From an uncultured Gammaproteobacteria bacterium (GTDB taxonomy: Bacteria > Patescibacteriota > Patescibacteriia > UBA1558 > GWA2-36-10), in NCBI GenBank assembly GCA_964443785.1, contig CAYUER010000003.1, forward strand, positions 1 through 44,999: a stretch of 44,999 nucleotides of DNA, read 5' to 3'. The translations under genes were made by a program, and so were the position numbers. A model generated the notes under the pieces. The model saw only the letters and a program-made list of their open reading frames with translations, did no database searches and was not told the origin of the DNA. Positions 13,822 to 31,725 of the stretch are shown in pieces (the first letter of the stretch is position 1; each line of letters begins with the position of its first letter).

Positions 13822-14376
13822 ATGAAATTAGTAGTAGGATTAGGCAATCCCGGAAAAGAATACCAACAGACGAGACACTCTTTTGGCTTCTTGGCTTTGG
13901 ATGCCTTATTAGAAAAAAAACAATTGAAGTGGTCTGAAAAAAAAGACTGCCAATCATTGATTGCTAGTTTTCAAGATGACAAGGATAAAATTATTTTATG
14001 CCAGCCACAAACTTTCATGAACAATTCTGGCGAAGCCGTCCAAAAACTCAAAAAATTCTACAAACTAAAAAATGATGATATCATTGTCATCTATGATGAT
14101 CTAGATTTACCTTTTGGTATATTCAAAGTGGCAGCCAAACGCTCTAGTGGTGGACACAATGGCATAGAATCAATCATCCAAGCTTTAAAATCTACTGATT
14201 TTGTACGCCTGAGACTAGGCATCGGCCCCCAGACTGGCAGTGCTGAAGATTTTGTTTTGAAAAAATTTAATACTACCGAAAAGAAAAAGCTACCAGAAAT
14301 CATTGACTCCTGTCACTTGGCTTTGGAGCTGATCATTAAAGATGGCTGGCAAGCAGCAGCCAATAAGTACAACTAA
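13822..14376 (+). CDS. pth: Peptidyl-tRNA hydrolase
   Basis: 184-aa ORF with MKLVVGLGNPG..Y..TRHSFGF, NNSGE and GGHNG motifs. Confidence 0.95.
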   Translation: MKLVVGLGNPGKEYQQTRHSFGFLALDALLEKKQLKWSEKKDCQSLIASFQDDKDKIILCQPQTFMNNSGEAVQKLKKFYKLKNDDIIVIYDDLDLPFGIFKVAAKRSSGGHNGIESIIQALKSTDFVRLRLGIGPQTGSAEDFVLKKFNTTEKKKLPEIIDSCHLALELIIKDGWQAAANKYN

Positions 14377-15866
14377 AAATTGCGCAGCCACTCTAAAAGT
14401 GTGCGCACGCCATAACCCACGCCACCGATAGGTGTATAAGCGTTTAATGGTTTTTCAGCATAAGCTGGGGCTGCTATATCAAGGTGAGCCCAAGATACAC
14501 CTTCATTGATAAATTCTTGTAAAAATAAAGCGGCTGTGATTGCTCCACCATAGCGAGTAGTAGCAGCATTGCGAATATCAGCTACCTGGCTTTTATTAAA
14601 CTCTTTATAATCATCTTCCAGTGGTAGGGACCACATTTTCTCACCAGCTATTTCACTGGCTTTTTTTATTTCCTGACTTAATTTTTCGTCATTGGAAAAC
14701 AAGCCAGCTATATTGGGCCCCAAAGCTACCATCACAGCACCAGTCAAAGTGGCCAAATCTATAATTTTTTTAGCCCCAATTTTTTGGGCATAGGCTAAAG
14801 AATCAGCTAAAGTCACCCGACCCTCTGCATCAGTATTCCAGATCTCAATACTCTTGCCTTGCATATTGCGGACAATATCACCCGGACGCATAGCTTTGTC
14901 TGATGGCATATTTTCACAGGCAGCTACTATCCCATGAACTTCGGCTTTTATATTGAGCTGTTCCAAAACAGCAAACACGCCCAAAACAGCGGCTGCTCCA
15001 CCCATGTCAATCTTCATTTGATACATACTATCGCCAGTTTTGATATTCAAACCACCACTATCAAAAGTAATACCTTTACCTACAAGAGCAATTTTTTCTT
15101 TGGCTTTGACCCGTGGTTTATAGACTAGATGAATAAATTTCAAAGGCTCGTGCGAACCCTGATCTACGGCTGCGAAAGCTTGCATACCTACTTTGAGCAC
15201 CTGTTCTTTTTCTAAAATTTTTACTTTGACTTGCTTATTATTTTTGGCAATATCGATAGCTCTGTCGGCCAAATAAGTTGGGGTCATGACATTGGCTGGC
15301 TCATTGACCAAATCTCTGGCCAAGATAGTACCGCGTGCTATGGCTTCGCCCAATTGCCAATGTTTGATAAAATTATTTTTCTTTTCTTTCGCTAATTCAA
15401 TAAATACTTGTTCAATATTTATTTGAATAACTTTTTTGTCAATTTTTTTATATTTATCAAACTTATAGCTAGCCAAATACAATCCTTCAACCAAACTTTG
15501 AGCAAAACGATCATAATCAGAAGATCCTTGTAGCCATTGACTGGCGACTAGGCCAATATTTTTCACTTGGTATTTTTGCAAAAAAGTAACTAACAAAGCG
15601 GCAGTCTCTCGCCAATCTTCTGAGGACAAGCGCCTAGACTGACCTAGGCCCAATAACACAACTAATTTATCTGCTAGCCTCATGACAAAAATATGATTTT
15701 TTTGTCCCTGAAATTTCTCTTTTTTAGTTTGAGCGATAAAAACAGACTCCTGATTTTTAGCAAAATAGCTGATAGCCTTAGCTAATTTTTCACCATCCTC
15801 AAAAATTGGACAAAAGATAGCTTCTAGCTTATTTTCTTTTAAATCTGGGCTTATAATTAGTTCCAT
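14373..15866 (-). CDS. pepA: Leucyl aminopeptidase (M17 family)
   Basis: 497-aa ORF with VGKGITFDSGG and NTDAEGRVTLAD metal-site motifs. It converges on pth with a 4-nt overlap. Confidence 0.9.
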   Translation of the reverse strand: MELIISPDLKENKLEAIFCPIFEDGEKLAKAISYFAKNQESVFIAQTKKEKFQGQKNHIFVMRLADKLVVLLGLGQSRRLSSEDWRETAALLVTFLQKYQVKNIGLVASQWLQGSSDYDRFAQSLVEGLYLASYKFDKYKKIDKKVIQINIEQVFIELAKEKKNNFIKHWQLGEAIARGTILARDLVNEPANVMTPTYLADRAIDIAKNNKQVKVKILEKEQVLKVGMQAFAAVDQGSHEPLKFIHLVYKPRVKAKEKIALVGKGITFDSGGLNIKTGDSMYQMKIDMGGAAAVLGVFAVLEQLNIKAEVHGIVAACENMPSDKAMRPGDIVRNMQGKSIEIWNTDAEGRVTLADSLAYAQKIGAKKIIDLATLTGAVMVALGPNIAGLFSNDEKLSQEIKKASEIAGEKMWSLPLEDDYKEFNKSQVADIRNAATTRYGGAITAALFLQEFINEGVSWAHLDIAAPAYAEKPLNAYTPIGGVGYGVRTLLEWLRNF

Positions 15867-15906
15867 ATATTTAAATGTTAATATTTAGGCTAAATTAACA
15901 TAATCC

Positions 15907-15942
15907 TGTCAAATTGACAAGTAAAATAGTATAGACTAAGAT
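15907..15942 (+). promoter_or_regulatory. Putative promoter (TTGACA-17 nt-TAAGAT). The -35 lies inside the perfect palindrome TGTCAA-A-TTGACA.
   Basis: TTGACA at 15914-15919 and TAAGAT at 15937-15942. The 13-bp perfect palindrome spans 15907-15919. It could also supply a TTGTCA -35 for the divergent pepA. Confidence 0.4.
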
Positions 15943-16008
15943 AATTTAGGTTTTCCACTGGACTACACAGGCCAGACAAAAAACCCAAGCACTAAAGTGA
16001 GGTGAAGC

Positions 16009-16176
16009 ATGAAAATCGAATTGCTCTGCTCCACTCCGCACTGCTCCAATCTGGTCGAAGAGGAGCCGGCAGACGCCAAGAGGCCACTCTCCAAGCTGCG
16101 CGCTACCGTGCGCTATTGCGCGGAGTGCATTGCCCGGGCAGACCAGGCCCAGCAGCCCAAGCTGCCGGGCATGTGA
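16009..16176 (+). CDS. Small GC-rich ORF: a 55-aa four-cysteine (zinc-ribbon-like) protein of unknown function
   Basis: MKIELLCSTPHCSNLVEEEPADAKRPLSKLRATVRYCAECIARADQAQQPKLPGM. The SD-like GAGGTG sits 5 nt upstream of the ATG. By hand count, 105/168 nt are G+C and 44/55 codons end in G/C, far higher than in the two overlapping track ORFs. A strong terminator follows. The ORF falls below the track's 60-aa cutoff. Confidence 0.4.
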   Translation: MKIELLCSTPHCSNLVEEEPADAKRPLSKLRATVRYCAECIARADQAQQPKLPGM

Positions 16177-16184
16177 CCACACTT

Positions 16185-16237
16185 CCGCCGCGCCCGACTC
16201 TGCAACAGCAGAGCGAGGCGCGGCGGATCTTTTTTTA
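16185..16237 (+). terminator. Strong intrinsic terminator after the small GC-rich ORF
   Basis: CCGCCGCGCC-cga-CTCTGC-aaca-GCAGAG-cga-GGCGCGGCGG gives 10+6 bp of perfect pairing with a symmetric internal loop. It is followed by ATCTTTTTTT. Confidence 0.65.
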
Positions 16238-16243
16238 TAAAAC

Positions 16244-16371
16244 AAAAATCCGCCTATCTCACACTGTCATCCCGGACTTGATCCGGGATCTCGCATTTAT
16301 TTGCCGTAAGGCAGAACAATGGTAGATTCCCGCCTTCGCGGGAATGACATTGCAAGAATTAGCGGATTTTT
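16244..16371. repeat. 128-bp imperfect palindrome (MITE-like) with 10-bp terminal inverted repeats AAAAATCCGC/GCGGATTTTT and two internal GTCAT..CCCG..CGGG..ATC hairpins
   Basis: Terminal inverted repeats lie at 16244-16253 and 16362-16371. One internal hairpin is GTCATCCCGGACTTGATCCGGGATC (16265-16289, + strand). The other is GTCATTCCCGCGAAGGCGGGAATC (16349-16326, - strand). The centre is GCC-gtaa-GGC. The element lies immediately 3' of rplA. Confidence 0.5.
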
Positions 16372-16379
16372 TAAAAAAA

Positions 16380-17060
16380 TTAATTTACTGATACTTTGAT
16401 ACTTGGCCCCATAGTAGAACTAATGTGGACAGACTTGATATAAGTACCTTTCATTTGTGGTTTAGCTTTTTTCAAAGAATCAACAAAAGCTTCAAAATTT
16501 TCTAAAATTTGTTGCTCAGTGTAAGAAGCTTTACCGATAGGCACATGAACATTGGCTGTGTCATCATTTTTGTAGGTCACTTTGCCTTTTTGCAATTCTT
16601 CAATCATCTTCACTATATCAGTACCAATGGTGCCGGTCTTAGGATTTGGCATGACGCCTTTTTGACCCAAAATTCTGGCAATCACTGCCAAATTTTTCAT
16701 CATATCAGGTACGGTGATAGCAATATCAAAATCACATTTACCCGTTTTTTTGATTTCTTCAATCAAAGTTTCGCCACCGGCAATAGCAGCACCAGCATCT
16801 TTGGCTTTTTTGACATCAGACTCTGGTACAAAAGCAGCAATGCGCACTTTTTTACCTGAACCGTGTGGCAAGTTGACCGAAGCTCTGACAATCTGCTCGC
16901 CTTTTTTGGGATCAATGCCCAAATTAGCATGAGCTTCAATAGTAGCATCAAATTTTAGACCAGCAGTTTCTTTGACTAGTTTGACTGCTTCTGTAGCTTC
17001 GTAGACCTTAGCGCTATCTACTTTAGCTTTAAAATTTTTCAATCTCTTTCCGATTTTCAT
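16380..17060 (-). CDS. rplA: 50S ribosomal protein L1
   Basis: 226-aa ORF that resembles L1 over its full length and sits directly downstream of rplK. Confidence 0.95.
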   Translation of the reverse strand: MKIGKRLKNFKAKVDSAKVYEATEAVKLVKETAGLKFDATIEAHANLGIDPKKGEQIVRASVNLPHGSGKKVRIAAFVPESDVKKAKDAGAAIAGGETLIEEIKKTGKCDFDIAITVPDMMKNLAVIARILGQKGVMPNPKTGTIGTDIVKMIEELQKGKVTYKNDDTANVHVPIGKASYTEQQILENFEAFVDSLKKAKPQMKGTYIKSVHISSTMGPSIKVSVN

Positions 17061-17124
17061 ATGGTTATAATTTACAGAGGTGCTAACGCTTTATTGACTA
17101 AACAAAGCTCCCTCCTATCTCCAA

Positions 17125-17550
17125 TTATTCTTCTATTTTGACACCCATCTGACGAGCAGTGCCAGCAATAATACGCTTGGCTGCCTCTAAATCAGTAGTG
17201 TTCAGATCAGACATCTTGGCTTTGGCAATCTCAGTCAACTGAGCATCAGTCAAAATACCAACCTTGTCCTGCAATGGCTTGCTGGAACCTTTTTCCAATT
17301 TCAAAGCTTTTTTGATCAACTCTGAGGCTGGGGCAGTCTTCAAGATAAAATCAAAAGTACGATCAGTGTAGATAGTCATCTCTACTGGTACGACTTCACC
17401 CATCCTGTCTTTGGTAGCATCATTGAATCTGACTACAAAATCTTGGATGTTTAGACCATGGGGTCCCAAAGCAGTACCGACTGGAGGTGCTGGGGTAGCT
17501 TTACCACCTTGGATCTGCAATTTTACTAATTGTTTAATTTCTTTTGCCAT
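17125..17550 (-). CDS. rplK: 50S ribosomal protein L11
   Basis: 141-aa ORF with the L11 N-terminal motif PAPPVGTALGPHGLNIQDF, in the order nusG-rplK-rplA. Confidence 0.95.
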   Translation of the reverse strand: MAKEIKQLVKLQIQGGKATPAPPVGTALGPHGLNIQDFVVRFNDATKDRMGEVVPVEMTIYTDRTFDFILKTAPASELIKKALKLEKGSSKPLQDKVGILTDAQLTEIAKAKMSDLNTTDLEAAKRIIAGTARQMGVKIEE

Positions 17551-17564
17551 ATTATTTTAGTTTA

Positions 17565-17628
17565 AAAGTTTTAAAGTTGAAAAGTTAACAAGTTGTAAAC
17601 TTGAGAACTTGCTAACTTGCGAACTTAA
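17565..17628. repeat. 8-nt-phased array of 4 x (A/C)AAGTT then 4 x NAACTT in the nusG-rplK spacer
   Basis: AAGTT cores start every 8 nt (units at 17565, 17573, 17581, 17589) and AACTT cores every 8 nt (units at 17597, 17605, 17613, 17621). The two halves are mutually complementary. A sister copy lies at 32776-32843. Confidence 0.7.
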
Positions 17629-17629
17629 T

Positions 17630-18175
17630 TTATACTTTCTTAATTTGTAAAAAATCCAATTCTACTGGCGTCTCGCGACCAAACATGGAGACCAGTACTT
17701 TGGCTTTGCCGCGTGCCTCATCAATATCAGACACTTTTCCTTCATAATCTTTGAATGGTCCATCAACAATTTTGACCAACTCACCAATCTCGATATCGAT
17801 TTTGTATTCTGGCTCTTCTTGACCCATGCGTTGCAACAGTGATTTCATCTCTTCGTCAGAAACTGGAGTCGGAGTAGTACCTGAGCCGACAAAACCGGTG
17901 ACATTTGGTGTATTACGCACTACATACCAAGAAGCGTCAGTCACGATCATATTGACCAAGACATAGCCAGGAAAAATCTTTTCTTTGATGGTCTTACGCT
18001 TGCCATTTTTGATTTTTATCTTGCTTTCAGTAGGAATCAAGATATCAAAAATCTTGTCCTCCATATCCATGGATTCTATCCTCTGGCGCAAATTTCTGGA
18101 TACATTTTCTTCGTAGCCAGAATAAGTATGCAAGACGTACCAGCGTCGACCTTGTTGGGCTGTTTGCTTTGGCAT
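17630..18175 (-). CDS. nusG: Transcription termination/antitermination factor NusG
   Basis: 181-aa ORF with an NGN domain (WYVLHTYSGYE) and a KOW motif (GELVKIVDGPFKDYEGKV). Confidence 0.95.
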   Translation of the reverse strand: MPKQTAQQGRRWYVLHTYSGYEENVSRNLRQRIESMDMEDKIFDILIPTESKIKIKNGKRKTIKEKIFPGYVLVNMIVTDASWYVVRNTPNVTGFVGSGTTPTPVSDEEMKSLLQRMGQEEPEYKIDIEIGELVKIVDGPFKDYEGKVSDIDEARGKAKVLVSMFGRETPVELDFLQIKKV

Positions 18176-18201
18176 AGGTATCTTAATTTAACCGGGTTAA
18201 T

Positions 18202-18387
18202 TTATTTAATCAAAACTAATTCTAAAATTTTACTCAAACCATAATCAGCGGCACCCAAAAATACAGCCACAATAACTGAAATCAAAATCACCACTAAAGT
18301 ATGATTGATGGTAGTTTGACGGCTGGGCCAAACTACTTTAGCCAATTCTTCCTTGGCTCCTTTGAAATAATCGCCTAATTTACTCAT
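18202..18387 (-). CDS. secE: Preprotein translocase subunit SecE
   Basis: 61-aa ORF with a single C-terminal TM helix, in the conserved position upstream of nusG. Confidence 0.85.
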   Translation of the reverse strand: MSKLGDYFKGAKEELAKVVWPSRQTTINHTLVVILISVIVAVFLGAADYGLSKILELVLIK

Positions 18388-31050: not shown

Positions 31051-31100
31051 GGCAAAAAGAAAAAGGGCTCTTGTCTACGCCCTCTGACAAACAAGAACCC
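31051..31100 (-). terminator. Intrinsic terminator of the GC-rich gene
   Basis: On the minus strand, GGGTTCTTGT-16 nt-ACAAGAGCCC (one mismatch) is followed by TTTTTCTTTTTGCCTTTTTT. Confidence 0.55.
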
Positions 31101-31133
31101 CCTTGCCCAAACTAATGGGCTGTGCTGTTGATC

Positions 31134-31685
31134 TTAATCAACGACGAGGGCCTGGCAATCTGCCAGTTTGATGGAAAGAACCTCTCCCCGATTGGCCTCG
31201 GGGATAAAGAGGCTGGTGACCTGGAAACTGCCGTCCAGCGCCGCCTCCAGGTGAGCCTGCTCACGCTGGGAAAGCTGGCCGTACCGCAAAAGCTGCTGAG
31301 CCTTGTCAAGGACTGTTTCCTTGAAAAGTCGTTGAGCTGACCTGAGGTCAGCAGCGTGAGCTTCCTTCTCCTCCTCCAAGGAGCCGAAAGCCTGACTGCC
31401 TCCGTAGGCCAGGCAATTCTGGTGATGAGCCAAGAACAAGTTCATAGCCCCGTGATTGGCGATCGTGATCCTGACCAGGTCCTCGGTCACCTCTTCGGTG
31501 ACATGGCAACCGCGTCGGTGGCGCAGAGTAGCTCCTGGCCGGTTGTAGGGGTCGATCATGGGCCCACCAGCCAAGCGACGCACCACTGCCAAGGTGGTGT
31601 CGGTCCAATGACCGTCGATGCAGCCAATGACTGCCCCATGGTAAACCTTGTGACTCAAATTCCTTCCTCCTTGCTGAGCTTCCAT
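31134..31685 (-). CDS. GC-rich homolog of the adjacent 149-aa protein, with a beta-carbonic-anhydrase-like CxDxH...HxxC signature. Function unknown.
   Basis: The sequence MEAQQGGRNLSHKVYHGAVIGCIDGHW...RPGA...LFLAHHQNCLAYGGSQAFGSLEEEKEAH aligns to ...LAVIKCVDFRF...WPGSA...LLLWHWDCGAYGGSSNFASAQEEEAAY of ORF 31792-32241. Two hand-counted 60-nt lines gave 58% and 65% G+C. An alternative start is the TTG at 31658, preceded by AAGGAGGAAGG and a 7-nt spacer. The track start at 31754 is the TTG of a TTGACA promoter box. Confidence 0.75.
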   Translation of the reverse strand: MEAQQGGRNLSHKVYHGAVIGCIDGHWTDTTLAVVRRLAGGPMIDPYNRPGATLRHRRGCHVTEEVTEDLVRITIANHGAMNLFLAHHQNCLAYGGSQAFGSLEEEKEAHAADLRSAQRLFKETVLDKAQQLLRYGQLSQREQAHLEAALDGSFQVTSLFIPEANRGEVLSIKLADCQALVVD

Positions 31686-31725
31686 TGGTATATGGGAGAA
31701 TAGCTCCCGTGAAAAAGGAAAACAT

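What the first reader, a model, noticed from the sequence alone, without database searches (positions are those of the whole stretch)
15907..16237. GC-rich island 1: a self-contained plus-strand cassette (promoter, SD, 55-aa four-Cys ORF, strong terminator) between pepA and rplA
Seen in sequence: the roughly 330-nt segment is compositionally foreign. By hand count the ORF is 105/168 G+C (about 62%), against 21/60 (35%) in a sample of the adjacent rplA. It contains TTGACA-17-TAAGAT, a leader of about 60 nt, GAGGTG 5 nt before the ATG at 16009, and the ORF MKIELLCSTPHCSNLVEEEPADAKRPLSKLRATVRYCAECIARADQAQQPKLPGM (C-x4-C ... C-x2-C). A 16-bp GC hairpin plus T7 terminator follows. In this frame 44 of 55 codons end in G/C, much more than in the two longer overlapping track ORFs, which supports this frame as the coding one. 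It is on the opposite strand to all its neighbours. Most native genes I checked here lack an SD, whereas this ORF has a strong one. Inference: it is a horizontally acquired mini-gene (zinc-ribbon-like small protein, possibly a regulator, toxin or anti-defence factor), or else an unrecognised structured RNA.
Basis: partly seen in the sequence, partly recalled or inferred. Interest (0 to 1): 0.65.

Follow-up and report, generated by a model that had tools for sequence, protein, structure and literature searches.

The report
Swappable zinc-finger mini-gene cassette
The GC-rich island is a real, self-contained small gene for a 55-residue four-cysteine zinc-finger protein that sits in a fixed slot between two housekeeping genes of an ultra-small (Patescibacteria) bacterium. 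Its coding core differs sharply between closely related genomes, and it uses a ribosome-binding signal that almost no other gene in this genome has.

Summary
Window 15914-16236 (+) holds TTGACA-17-TAAGAT, a leader of about 58 nt, the SD GAGGTGA, a 55-codon four-Cys ORF (63% GC, GC3 0.80, genome 39%) and a -39.5 kcal/mol hairpin followed by T7.

It is a protein gene, not an RNA.
- Rfam finds nothing.
- The frame is kept in every relative while the DNA diverges (pS 0.74 against pN 0.065 in the best pair).

It is not a recent import or an assembly artefact.
- All 7 genomes of the genus, and at least 4 further genera of the same Patescibacteria family, carry related zinc-finger genes antisense in the same rplA-pepA junction.
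- Other relatives have an empty junction.

The promoter, the SD, the Cys ligands, the C-terminal LPGM and the terminator arms are conserved. The roughly 220-nt core is replaced between near-identical backgrounds: flanks 96.5-98.8% identical, core 47-65%.

Only 3% of long ORFs here have a 5-mer SD. SD presence correlates with high GC3 (odds ratio 27), and the genus 16S rRNA keeps the anti-SD.

No Pfam, NCBIfam, PHROG, PADLOC, PDB or viral relative was found. The function is unassigned. My best guess is a zinc-stabilised protein-binding adaptor or inhibitor with strain-specific targets.

The parts
15914..15942 (+). Sigma-70-type promoter TTGACA-17-TAAGAT of the cassette. It is divergent from pepA.
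   Evidence: Consensus scan gives 10 of 12 matches. The same hexamers, with the -35 hexamer 46-47 nt from the pepA ATG and a 17-nt spacer, occur in 9 of 10 related loci although the spacer sequence varies.
15949..16008 (+). Leader of about 58 nt (the transcription start is inferred). It carries a small 5' hairpin and the extended Shine-Dalgarno GAGGTGA at 15999-16005.
   Evidence: Read from the sequence. The SD is complementary to the genus 16S 3' end GGATCACCTCCTT. GGAGGTGA or GAGGTGA precedes the B-type genes of the short and L015 alleles; some A-type and long B genes have weaker or different SDs.
16009..16176 (+). 55-codon ORF (stop included) for a four-Cys zinc-finger mini-protein: MKIELLCSTPHCSNLVEEEPADAKRPLSKLRATVRYCAECIARADQAQQPKLPGM.
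   Evidence: ORF list. The frame is conserved in relatives (alignments A3, A5, A6). Purifying selection. AF2 model with pLDDT 78.8.
15923..16140 (+). Replaceable (hypervariable) core: promoter spacer, leader and codons 1-44.
   Evidence: Compared with the Logan contig L013, this core is 47-65% identical, whereas both flanks are 96.5-98.8% identical.
16141..16176 (+). Conserved 3' end of the ORF (...QQPKLPGM, then stop).
   Evidence: 92% identical to L013. LPGM is invariant in six short alleles while its codons change synonymously.
16185..16236 (+). Intrinsic terminator: GC hairpin with arms CCGCCGCGCC and GGCGCGGCGG (16185-16226), followed by T7 (16230-16236).
   Evidence: -39.5 kcal/mol, z = -8.4. 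The arms are conserved in G001-G005 and L015, and shortened to CCGCCGCG/CGCGGCGG in G006; L012 has a different hairpin. All relatives fold to -31 to -40 kcal/mol; six of seven are followed directly by a run of at least six T, G004 by UUCUUUAAUUUU.
14373..15866 (-). pepA (leucyl aminopeptidase). This is the left, conserved flank of the slot.
   Evidence: ORF. 65-98% aa identity in relatives.
16380..17060 (-). rplA (uL1). This is the right, conserved flank and is convergent with the cassette.
   Evidence: ORF. Found in 39 of 39 family genomes.
16244..16371 (.). MITE-like long palindrome between the cassette terminator and the rplA stop. On the minus strand it is followed by a T run, so it probably serves as the rplA terminator.
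   Evidence: Read from the sequence. Conserved in G001, G003 and L013, and absent in G005. Only 2-3 copies in the genome.

Best explanation
The island is an autonomous, single-gene accessory cassette inserted antisense into the otherwise tight rplA-to-pepA junction of a freshwater Patescibacteria (CPR) genome.

How it is expressed:
- A conserved sigma-70-type promoter drives a transcript of about 290 nt.
- An extended Shine-Dalgarno sequence, complementary to the retained anti-SD of the 16S rRNA, recruits ribosomes. This is unusual in a genome where about 97% of genes have no 5-mer SD.
- A very strong hairpin followed by a T run stops transcription before it can run antisense into rplA.

What it makes:
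- The product is a cytoplasmic, roughly neutral 55-aa protein.
- Four conserved cysteines most likely hold one zinc ion. The predicted shape is a beta-hairpin knuckle plus helices, with the second Cys pair at the start of a helix (treble-clef-like).

How it evolves:
- The protein module belongs to a family found only in this bacterial family. It occurs as short (52-63 aa), long (105-112 aa, with a helical-hairpin tail) and tandem-double (A-type, about 105-129 aa) forms.
- Each allelic lineage is under purifying selection.
- Deeply diverged alleles or paralogues are exchanged between close relatives, probably by homologous recombination across the conserved promoter and the 3'-end/terminator flanks. 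The cassette is absent altogether in some relatives.

Status of each step:
- Shown: coding status, conservation of the signals, the swap pattern, clade restriction, and the two-class link between SD and GC.
- Inferred: that the promoter, SD and terminator function as such, and that zinc is bound.
- Inferred with about 30-35% confidence: that the protein acts as a zinc-stabilised protein-binding adaptor or inhibitor whose variable surface matches a strain-specific partner (phage, host or competitor interface, or a regulatory target such as RNA polymerase or a sigma factor).

The confidence value given here applies to the structural and evolutionary reading (a real, autonomous, swappable accessory protein gene), not to the functional guess.
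For: Anatomy.

Protein-coding:
- An in-frame ORF with an SD is present at the same place in 7 of 7 genus genomes and in the L012, L013 and L015 contigs.
- G005 against L012 gives pS 0.74 and pN 0.065. All same-type pairs give dN/dS below 0.5.

Clade restriction:
- An exhaustive HMM search of 1.84 billion representatives finds only the query itself plus two true relatives.
- Word-based searches of 5.8 billion proteins return only 'hypothetical protein' entries from Patescibacteria or Parcubacteria.

Slot:
- The cassette is present in genus g1 (7 of 7), G044 (g2), G009 (g4), G016 (g11) and G054 (g12).
- The junction is empty in G041 (130-nt spacer) and in G007 (93-nt spacer, same genus as G044).

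Swap:
- Window against L013: flanks 96.5-98.8% identical, core 47-65%.
- G004 against G006: flanks 90-93%, gene A 81%, gene B 41-51%.
- Conversely, gene B is 87% aa-identical between G005 and L012, while the L012 pepA N-terminus is only 37% identical to the window's (G005's is 79%; G005 and L012 were not compared directly).

Signals and the two-class pattern:
- The promoter is fixed in 9 of 10 loci.
- SD scarcity. SD against GC3 >= 0.55 gives an odds ratio of 27, p = 5e-11.
- The anti-SD is retained in the genus 16S rRNA.

Protein:
- AF2 pLDDT is 78.8 for the short form and 79.5 for the long form.
- pI ranges from 4.6 to 8.7, which is not like a ribosomal protein or a typical nucleic-acid binder.
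- A and B modules are homologous: hhalign probability 89%, E = 2.5e-6.
Against: - There are no expression data.
- Zinc binding is inferred only. Some alleles replace the fourth Cys with His or lose it.
- No homology or fold match constrains the function.
- L013 is a 1-kb Logan contig. A graph cross-over in the conserved promoter or terminator 31-mers could in principle have produced its mosaic. The swap conclusion therefore also rests on the G004/G006 and G005/L012 comparisons.
- Differential loss from a multi-paralogue ancestor (as in L015, which carries two types in tandem) could mimic allele replacement.
- pN/pS shows purifying selection, not positive selection, so 'arms-race' diversification is not demonstrated.
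Confidence: 0.72

Rival explanations
1. Recent horizontal import of a mini-gene from a high-GC, SD-using donor (host bacterium, plasmid or phage). On this view the GC-rich composition is simply an un-ameliorated leftover.
For: - The composition is foreign: 63% GC against 39% for the genome.
- The strong SD is atypical for this genome.
- The architecture is self-contained.
- The cassette is present or absent among relatives.
Against: - The same slot and family occur across at least 5 genera, with 31-56% aa identity between alleles.
- GC3 stays at 0.55-0.81 in alleles whose synonymous sites are saturated.
- No homologue outside the clade was found in 1.84 billion representatives, in 2.9 million viral contigs, or by the hairpin scan.
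- The promoter is conserved together with the neighbouring pepA upstream region.
Confidence: 0.07
2. A lineage-specific accessory factor of the ribosome or of RNA polymerase, for example a diverged bL33-like zinc-ribbon paralogue or a small anti-sigma or secondary-channel binder. Its place in the secE-nusG-rplK-rplA neighbourhood would then reflect that role.
For: - Within these genomes, the family profile's next-best matches include rpmG (bL33) in G014; the other marginal hits were not inspected.
- hhalign against the genome's own bL33 aligns both Cys pairs.
- The gene lies beside rplA.
- Sub-threshold N-terminal matches to Fin and Gin, which are zinc-binding anti-sigma factors.
- The long form has a helical hairpin like RNA-polymerase-binding coiled coils.
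Against: - The hhalign probability is only 32%. No Pfam L33 match.
- The genuine rpmG is elsewhere, on contig C6.
- pI is 4.6-8.7 against 9.7 for bL33.
- The gene is dispensable: some relatives have an empty slot.
- It is hypervariable, which is unexpected for a partner of conserved machinery.
- The Fin and Gin hits cover only the CxxC knuckle and fall far below the cut-offs.
Confidence: 0.15
3. An unrecognised structured non-coding RNA, with GC-richness reflecting helices and the ORF being fortuitous.
For: - The whole segment folds far better than shuffles on both strands, z = -5.5 and -5.8.
- GC-rich islands in AT-rich genomes are often RNA genes.
Against: - No Rfam family matches at gathering threshold, and only noise appears at E up to 10. 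No tRNA or tmRNA.
- The fold signal comes from the terminator and a small leader hairpin. The ORF alone gives z from -0.1 to -2.0.
- Relatives keep the reading frame, the SD, the ATG and the Cys codons while the nucleotides diverge to the point of being unalignable.
Confidence: 0.03
4. The target of a diversity-generating retroelement or another programmed hypermutation system, with the variable region ending at a GC hairpin as in DGR targets.
For: - The variable core is bounded by a conserved 3' segment plus a GC-rich hairpin.
- From my own knowledge, CPR genomes are known to be rich in DGRs.
Against: - No reverse transcriptase in the 97.5%-complete genome.
- No second (template) copy of the region.
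- The differences include indels and whole-segment replacement, not adenine-specific substitutions.
- Purifying selection acts within allele types.
Confidence: 0.01
5. An assembly chimera: a GC-rich fragment from another organism mis-joined into the contig.
For: - The composition switches abruptly.
- This is a MAG of 53 contigs.
Against: - The same pepA-cassette-rplA order is found in seven independently assembled genomes, two Logan contigs and two JGI metagenome contigs.
- The flanking promoter and terminator are conserved with the host flanks.
Confidence: 0.01

Closest known systems
Phage 'morons' (autonomous promoter-gene-terminator units inserted between two genes of an otherwise co-linear genome; Hendrix/Juhala concept, from my own knowledge)
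   Same: - It has its own promoter and its own strong terminator.
- Its composition deviates from the surrounding genome.
- It is inserted between two adjacent genes without disrupting them.
- It is present or absent among close relatives, and its cargo is small and often of unknown function.
   Different: - It is not in a prophage. It lies in a chromosomal housekeeping junction (rplA-pepA).
- No viral homologue was found.
- The slot is conserved across a bacterial family.
- The cargo is exchanged between conserved promoter and terminator flanks.
The minority of SD-bearing genes in SD-poor bacteria that keep the anti-SD (for example rpsU/bS21 in Flavobacterium johnsoniae and other Bacteroidia; from my own knowledge, and named in earlier scan notes)
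   Same: - Most genes lack an SD although the 16S rRNA keeps CCUCC.
- A few genes carry a very strong SD, which implies a separate translation-initiation regime.
   Different: - The cargo is not a ribosomal protein.
- The SD-led genes here are also GC-rich, orphan and swappable.
- No evidence was obtainable on whether the anti-SD is occluded in these ribosomes.
- PMC9297842 reports loss of the anti-SD in part of Parcubacteria, but this genus retains it.
Small stand-alone four-Cys zinc proteins that act by binding a partner: CsfB/Gin and Fin (anti-sigma), DksA/TraR (RNA polymerase), YacG (gyrase), Ogr/Delta and Mu Com (phage regulators)
   Same: - The size is 50-75 aa.
- There are two Cys pairs about 20-25 residues apart.
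- The protein is cytoplasmic and is often encoded as a solitary gene.
   Different: - No significant sequence match. The best are Fin at E = 0.04-0.06 and Gin at E = 0.11, covering the knuckle only.
- No significant fold match in Foldseek against PDB or BFVD: every hit has E > 0.4.
- The C-x4-C spacing of the first pair and the helix-rich linker differ from these proteins.
Ribosomal protein bL33 (zinc-ribbon form)
   Same: - About 50 aa, with the pattern hxLxC..C ... (R/K)YCxxC.
- It was among the next-best matches of the family profile inside these genomes.
   Different: - hhalign probability is 32%.
- The protein is neutral or acidic rather than basic.
- The true rpmG is present elsewhere.
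- The gene is dispensable in relatives.
Flexible or hypervariable genomic islets of streamlined free-living bacteria (for example the SAR11 HVRs; from my own knowledge)
   Same: - The position between conserved genes is fixed.
- The content differs between near-identical strains.
- The composition is atypical.
   Different: - It is only about 0.3-0.9 kb, holding 1-2 genes.
- The conserved promoter and terminator act as the recombination and expression frame.
- All cargo belongs to a single zinc-finger module family.

Membership tests
Known RNA family (Rfam 15) | A covariance-model match at or above the gathering score | tested here: not met
   No matches in the whole window. In 15700-16500 only chance hits of 12-21 bits, with E >= 0.4. 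No tRNA or tmRNA.
Zinc ribbon / treble-clef small zinc finger (structural class) | Four metal ligands arranged as two knuckles (CxxC-like) and conserved across homologues | tested here: met
   C7, C12 and C37 are invariant. C40 is Cys, or His in the long forms, and is lost in one allele.
Zinc ribbon / treble-clef small zinc finger (structural class) | A fold with a beta-hairpin knuckle and the second ligand pair at the N-terminus of a helix, with metal bound | tested here: inconclusive
   The AF2 models (pLDDT 78.8 and 79.5) show strands around the first pair and a helix starting at C37/C38. Foldseek gives no significant match. Metal binding cannot be tested with these tools.
Ribosomal protein bL33 (PF00471) | A sequence match to the family model and a strongly basic composition | tested here: not met
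   No Pfam hit at E <= 1. hhalign probability 32%. pI 7.7 against 9.7 for the genome's own bL33.
Phage moron | Own promoter and terminator flanking a single ORF, with deviating base composition | tested here: met
   The signals match consensus and are conserved. Their activity was not measured.
Phage moron | Located in a phage or prophage genome | tested here: not met
   The neighbours are pepA and rplA-rplK-nusG-secE. No viral relatives or hairpin matches in IMG/VR. No significant PHROG hit.
DGR variable protein | A reverse transcriptase and a template repeat in the genome, with adenine-specific variation | tested here: not met
   No RVT_1 match. No second copy of the region. The variation is whole-segment replacement with indels.
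Integron gene cassette | A promoterless ORF followed by an attC site, arrayed next to intI and attI | tested here: not met
   The cassette has its own conserved promoter. The neighbours are pepA and rplA, with no integrase in the locus. The hairpin is a perfect GC stem followed by a T run, i.e. terminator-like. A genome-wide search for IntI was not run.
Known anti-phage defence proteins (PADLOC) / NCBIfam named families | A profile match | tested here: not met
   No match better than E = 0.007, and every match is far below its cut-off.
Type II toxin-antitoxin pair | Two adjacent co-transcribed small genes, with one recognisable toxin or antitoxin fold | tested here: not met
   The window has a single gene. 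Relatives with two genes (A and B) have two paralogous zinc modules, and in G009 each gene has its own promoter. No toxin or antitoxin family hit.

The most novel reading that the evidence does not exclude
These AT-rich Patescibacteria, which mostly translate without an SD, may keep a second, native class of genes written in a different dialect.

- Members of this class are GC-rich, strictly SD-led, promoter-to-terminator cassettes that occupy fixed slots between housekeeping genes.
- Their cargo, here a family of zinc-finger mini-proteins, is exchanged among strains by recombination across the conserved frame.
- The high GC3 would be actively maintained, by selection or by biased gene conversion at a recombination hot spot.
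- The SD would channel these mRNAs to a particular ribosome state or growth condition.

The rplA-pepA cassette would then be one well-resolved example of a general, undescribed expression and exchange system in CPR bacteria.
Probability: 0.25. Interest if true: 0.85.

Novelty: new variant of a known kind. Interest (0 to 1): 0.6.

Why it matters
CPR/Patescibacteria make up a large part of bacterial diversity. They have tiny genomes, and how they vary between strains and interact with hosts and phages is poorly understood. This locus offers several things.

- **A resolved example of micro-scale gene exchange.** It has a conserved promoter and terminator frame, replaceable cargo and an empty-site control, all in a genome with almost no classical mobile elements.
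- **A contrast between two translation-initiation regimes in one cell.** A test would need reporter constructs carried into a genetically tractable relative.
- **A new small zinc-finger family.** It has three architectures and no relatives in Pfam, PDB or phage databases.
- **A compositional puzzle.** GC3 stays at 0.55-0.81 through saturating synonymous divergence in a 39% GC genome. This bears on how base composition is maintained, whether by selection or by biased gene conversion.

If the protein proves to be a strain-specific inhibitor or adaptor, it would also point to the conflict or recognition system it serves.

Tried and rejected
- **Rfam.** Gathering-threshold and permissive scans, plus ARAGORN, found nothing.
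- **Protein family libraries.** Pfam, PHROGs, PADLOC and NCBIfam on 10-14 family members gave only sub-threshold generic zinc-ribbon noise.
- **PDB by sequence profile.** Only coiled-coil noise such as coronin.
- **Foldseek.** The short and long AF2 models against PDB, and the short model against BFVD, gave no hit with E < 0.4. The top non-significant hits were the A20 zinc finger and HPV E7 CR3.
- **bL33 paralogue idea.** hhalign probability 32%; rejected as membership.
- **DGR idea.** No RT and no template repeat.
- **Viral origin.** The hairpin pattern and two protein alignments against IMG/VR returned nothing. The broad alignment A6 was too divergent to build patterns.
- **SD sequestration by the conserved ORF 3' end.** I considered this because of the G000 MFE fold. 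I dropped it because, by eye, the complementarity is absent in G001 and G003.
- **Structured mRNA as the reason for the high GC.** ORF-only z-scores are unremarkable.
- **Literature.** Searches for Patescibacteria or CPR with Shine-Dalgarno, GC-rich, or small Cys or zinc proteins found no description of this class. PMC9297842 only notes anti-SD loss in some Parcubacteria.
Full report
**1. What is there**

Window 15907-16237 is the sharpest compositional anomaly in the 45-kb window.
- GC in 200-nt windows climbs from 0.29 to 0.635. The 120-nt peak is 0.71 against a window mean of 0.39.
- The sequence shows TTGACA-17-TAAGAT at 15914-15942, which scores 10 of 12. A leader of about 58 nt follows.
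- GAGGTGA sits at 15999-16005 and the ATG at 16009.
- The 55-codon ORF ends at 16176.
- At 16185-16226 there is a 19-bp interrupted GC hairpin of -39.5 kcal/mol, z = -8.4, followed by seven T.
- pepA (14373..15866) and rplA (16380..17060) are both on the minus strand. The cassette is therefore divergent from pepA and convergent with rplA.
- The segment is single-copy in its genome, an 814-kb, 53-contig, 97.5%-complete assembly. Record titles of relatives identify the organism as a freshwater Patescibacteria (CPR) bacterium.

**2. RNA or protein?**

The evidence favours a protein gene.
- Rfam gives nothing at gathering thresholds over the whole window and only noise in a permissive scan. ARAGORN finds nothing.
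- The strong fold z-scores of the whole segment come from the terminator and a small leader hairpin. The ORF alone, in seven alleles, folds like its shuffles, z from -0.1 to -2.0.
- Every relative has an SD-led ATG ORF in the same place and frame, with the Cys pattern preserved while the DNA diverges (alignments).
- Nei-Gojobori counts give pS 0.74 against pN 0.065 for G005 versus L012. All pairs of the same allele type give dN/dS of 0.02-0.5.
- This is a translated gene under purifying selection.

**3. Distribution and the slot**

- A DNA search of 41 relatives found only the 3' end and terminator conserved, and only within the genus.
- A profile search finds the protein in 7 of 7 genus genomes and nowhere else at E < 1e-3. 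The marginal hits include rpmG in G014.
- An exhaustive HMM search of 1.84 billion representative proteins returns only the query itself and two true relatives. Word-based searches of 5.8 billion proteins add a handful of 'hypothetical proteins' from Patescibacteria or Parcubacteria.
- Inspecting the region downstream of rplA in 30 family genomes showed convergent, SD-led, GC-richer zinc-finger genes, too diverged for the HMM, in other genera:
  - G009: an A-like 94-aa gene and a B-like 63-aa gene, each with its own promoter.
  - G054: 74 aa.
  - G016: 62 aa.
  - G044: a 105-aa long form.
- G041, and G007 (same genus as G044), have rplA followed directly by pepA with spacers of 130 and 93 nt. 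These are empty sites.
- The G044/G007 comparison shows the unit inserted between the rplA terminator and the pepA upstream region: promoter TTGACA-16-TATAAT, leader, gene and terminator.
- Architectures vary:
  - G000, G001, G003 and L013 have one short gene (B).
  - G005, L012, G002, G004 and G006 have an upstream A gene, which is two tandem zinc modules, plus B.
  - L015 has two B types in tandem.
- The A and B modules are homologous: hhalign probability 89%, E = 2.5e-6.

**4. Swapping**

- The Logan contig L013 matches the window at 98.8% in pepA, 98.2% up to the -35 box, 91.7% in the last 11 codons, 95.4% in the terminator, 96.5% in the MITE and 97.4% in rplA. From the promoter spacer to codon 44 (15923-16140) it is only 47-65% identical. 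It encodes the G001-type allele, which is 40% aa-identical to the window's.
- G004 and G006 show the same pattern. Flanks are 90-93% identical and rplA differs by about one residue (by eye from the translations). Gene A is 81% identical and gene B 41-51%.
- Conversely, gene B of G005 and L012 is 87% aa-identical, although the L012 pepA N-terminus is only 37% identical to the window's, where G005's is 79%. G005 and L012 pepA were not compared directly.
- Alleles therefore do not follow the flanks. Old allele or paralogue lineages are shuffled at this locus, most simply by homologous recombination in the conserved frame.
- Caveats:
  - L013 is a short contig and could be a graph cross-over.
  - Differential loss from a tandem ancestor could contribute.
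- No reverse transcriptase and no template copy exist, so a DGR is excluded.

**5. The frame and the genome-wide class**

- The promoter hexamers are the same in 9 of 10 loci while the spacer sequence changes: the -35 hexamer lies 46-47 nt from the pepA ATG, with a 17-nt spacer.
- The terminators all fold to -31 to -40 kcal/mol; six of the seven tested are followed directly by a T run and G004 by a weaker, interrupted one. They mostly share the arms CCGCCGCG/CGCGGCGG. A terminator of that strength fits the need to keep antisense transcription out of rplA.
- Only 6%, 3% and 0.9% of 562 long ORFs have a 4-, 5- or 6-mer SD. Yet the genus 16S rRNA ends in GGATCACCTCCTT.
- Among 895 non-overlapping ORFs, a 5-mer SD precedes 1.4% of those with GC3 < 0.55 and 28% of those with GC3 >= 0.55. 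The odds ratio is 27, p = 5e-11.
- The SD-led GC-rich set includes other small Cys-rich, membrane, lipoprotein and pilin-like ORFs. It also includes the window's second island at about 31100-31700, which has TTGACA-17-CATAAT (sequence).
- Earlier notes of this scan describe the same two-class pattern in many other Patescibacteria genomes. I treat those as leads. The tests above are independent and agree with them.
- GC3 remains at 0.55-0.81 in alleles separated by saturated synonymous divergence. The composition is therefore being maintained rather than inherited from a recent donor.

**6. The protein**

- AF2 with the family alignment gives pLDDT 78.8. It shows short strands around C7 and C12, two short helices, and a helix starting at C37-x2-C40.
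- The long form (pLDDT 79.5) has a clear beta-hairpin, then a 37-residue helix starting at the second Cys pair and a second long helix, together forming a helical hairpin.
- C7, C12 and C37 are invariant. The fourth ligand is Cys or His, and it is lost in one allele.
- pI is 4.6-8.7. There is no signal peptide or transmembrane segment (read from the sequences).
- Nothing significant was found in Pfam, NCBIfam, PHROGs, PADLOC, PDB sequences, or Foldseek against PDB and BFVD.
- The bL33 resemblance is weak, with hhalign probability 32%, and the real rpmG is on contig C6.

**7. How it most likely works**

- Shown: this is a conserved expression frame with replaceable, purifying-selected cargo. 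It is clade-restricted and dispensable, and it belongs to the SD-led GC-rich minority class.
- Inferred from consensus and conservation:
  - constitutive transcription from the sigma-70-type promoter;
  - SD-dependent initiation on ribosomes that keep the anti-SD;
  - efficient termination before rplA.
- Inferred from composition and fold: a zinc-stabilised, non-basic mini-domain is more likely to bind a protein than nucleic acid. Its conserved scaffold with a variable surface, allele exchange and presence/absence fit a strain-specific interaction. Candidates are phage, host or competitor interfaces, or an inhibitor of a regulatory protein.
- I put about 30-35% on that functional class and about 15% on a ribosome- or RNA-polymerase-associated factor. 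The remainder is unknown.

**8. Comparison and novelty**

- The architecture works like a phage moron and like the flexible islets of streamlined bacteria. The translation contrast resembles the few SD-bearing genes of SD-poor Bacteroidia.
- It is not a member of any tested family (see the membership table).
- I found no description in the searchable literature.
- I rate it a new variant of a known kind. The protein family itself is new.

**9. Limits**

Junction coverage, expression and within-sample polymorphism were therefore not tested.
- G000 lacks an assembled 16S rRNA, so the anti-SD was read from three congeners.

Noticed in passing
window 16244-16371: A MITE-like 128-bp long palindrome (TIRs AAAAATCCGC and GCGGATTTTT with two internal GC hairpins) lies between the cassette terminator and the rplA stop. 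It is conserved in G001, G003 and L013 and absent in G005. It has only 2-3 copies in the genome. On the minus strand it is followed by a T run, so it probably doubles as the rplA terminator.
   Followed up: partly
window 31094-31709 (minus strand): A second GC-rich island. It holds an SD-led gene with its own TTGACA-17-CATAAT promoter at about 31754-31726, the same cassette style as the finding.
   Followed up: partly
whole genome G000 (e.g. C1:442-1449, C1:23535-24197, C16:18191-18754, C22:305-709, C17:8412-8630, C13:22091-22812): About 25-30 GC-rich ORFs with strong SDs are scattered through a genome whose core genes lack an SD. They include a prepilin-like protein, lipoproteins or secreted proteins, small Cys-rich proteins and a run of three small membrane proteins.
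   Followed up: partly
L043 (G021), L053 (G016), L056 (G046), L054 (G018): downstream of rplA: Other genera of the family carry a different cassette at the same junction. It is co-directional and SD-led. Three of them (G021, G016, G046) hold a 94-113-aa protein (MYRDRHK.../...AAEELL...) plus a 64-66-aa very acidic protein (...AIYGQxD...); G018 shows only a 92-aa gene. G016 has both this pair and a convergent zinc-finger gene.
   Followed up: no
L009, L010 (record titles): Two public MAGs of this Patescibacteria genus are titled 'uncultured Gammaproteobacteria bacterium'. This is probably a mislabel in the TPA assemblies.
   Followed up: no
G002:C8 end (L005) and G002:C7:46730-47410: In G002 the contig ends about 270 bp after the cassette terminator, and rplA lies on another contig. 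The palindromic repeat block beside the cassette seems to break assemblies.
   Followed up: no
window 16380-18387 and relatives: The secE-nusG-rplK-rplA cluster is followed by pepA rather than rplJ-rplL in this whole family. The location of rplJL was not looked up.
   Followed up: no
L013 533-712 (P0004): One type-II allele has lost the fourth cysteine (C-R-D-S instead of C-R-T-C) but keeps a nearby His (RFHGAIC). This suggests ligand substitution or decay of the zinc site.
   Followed up: no
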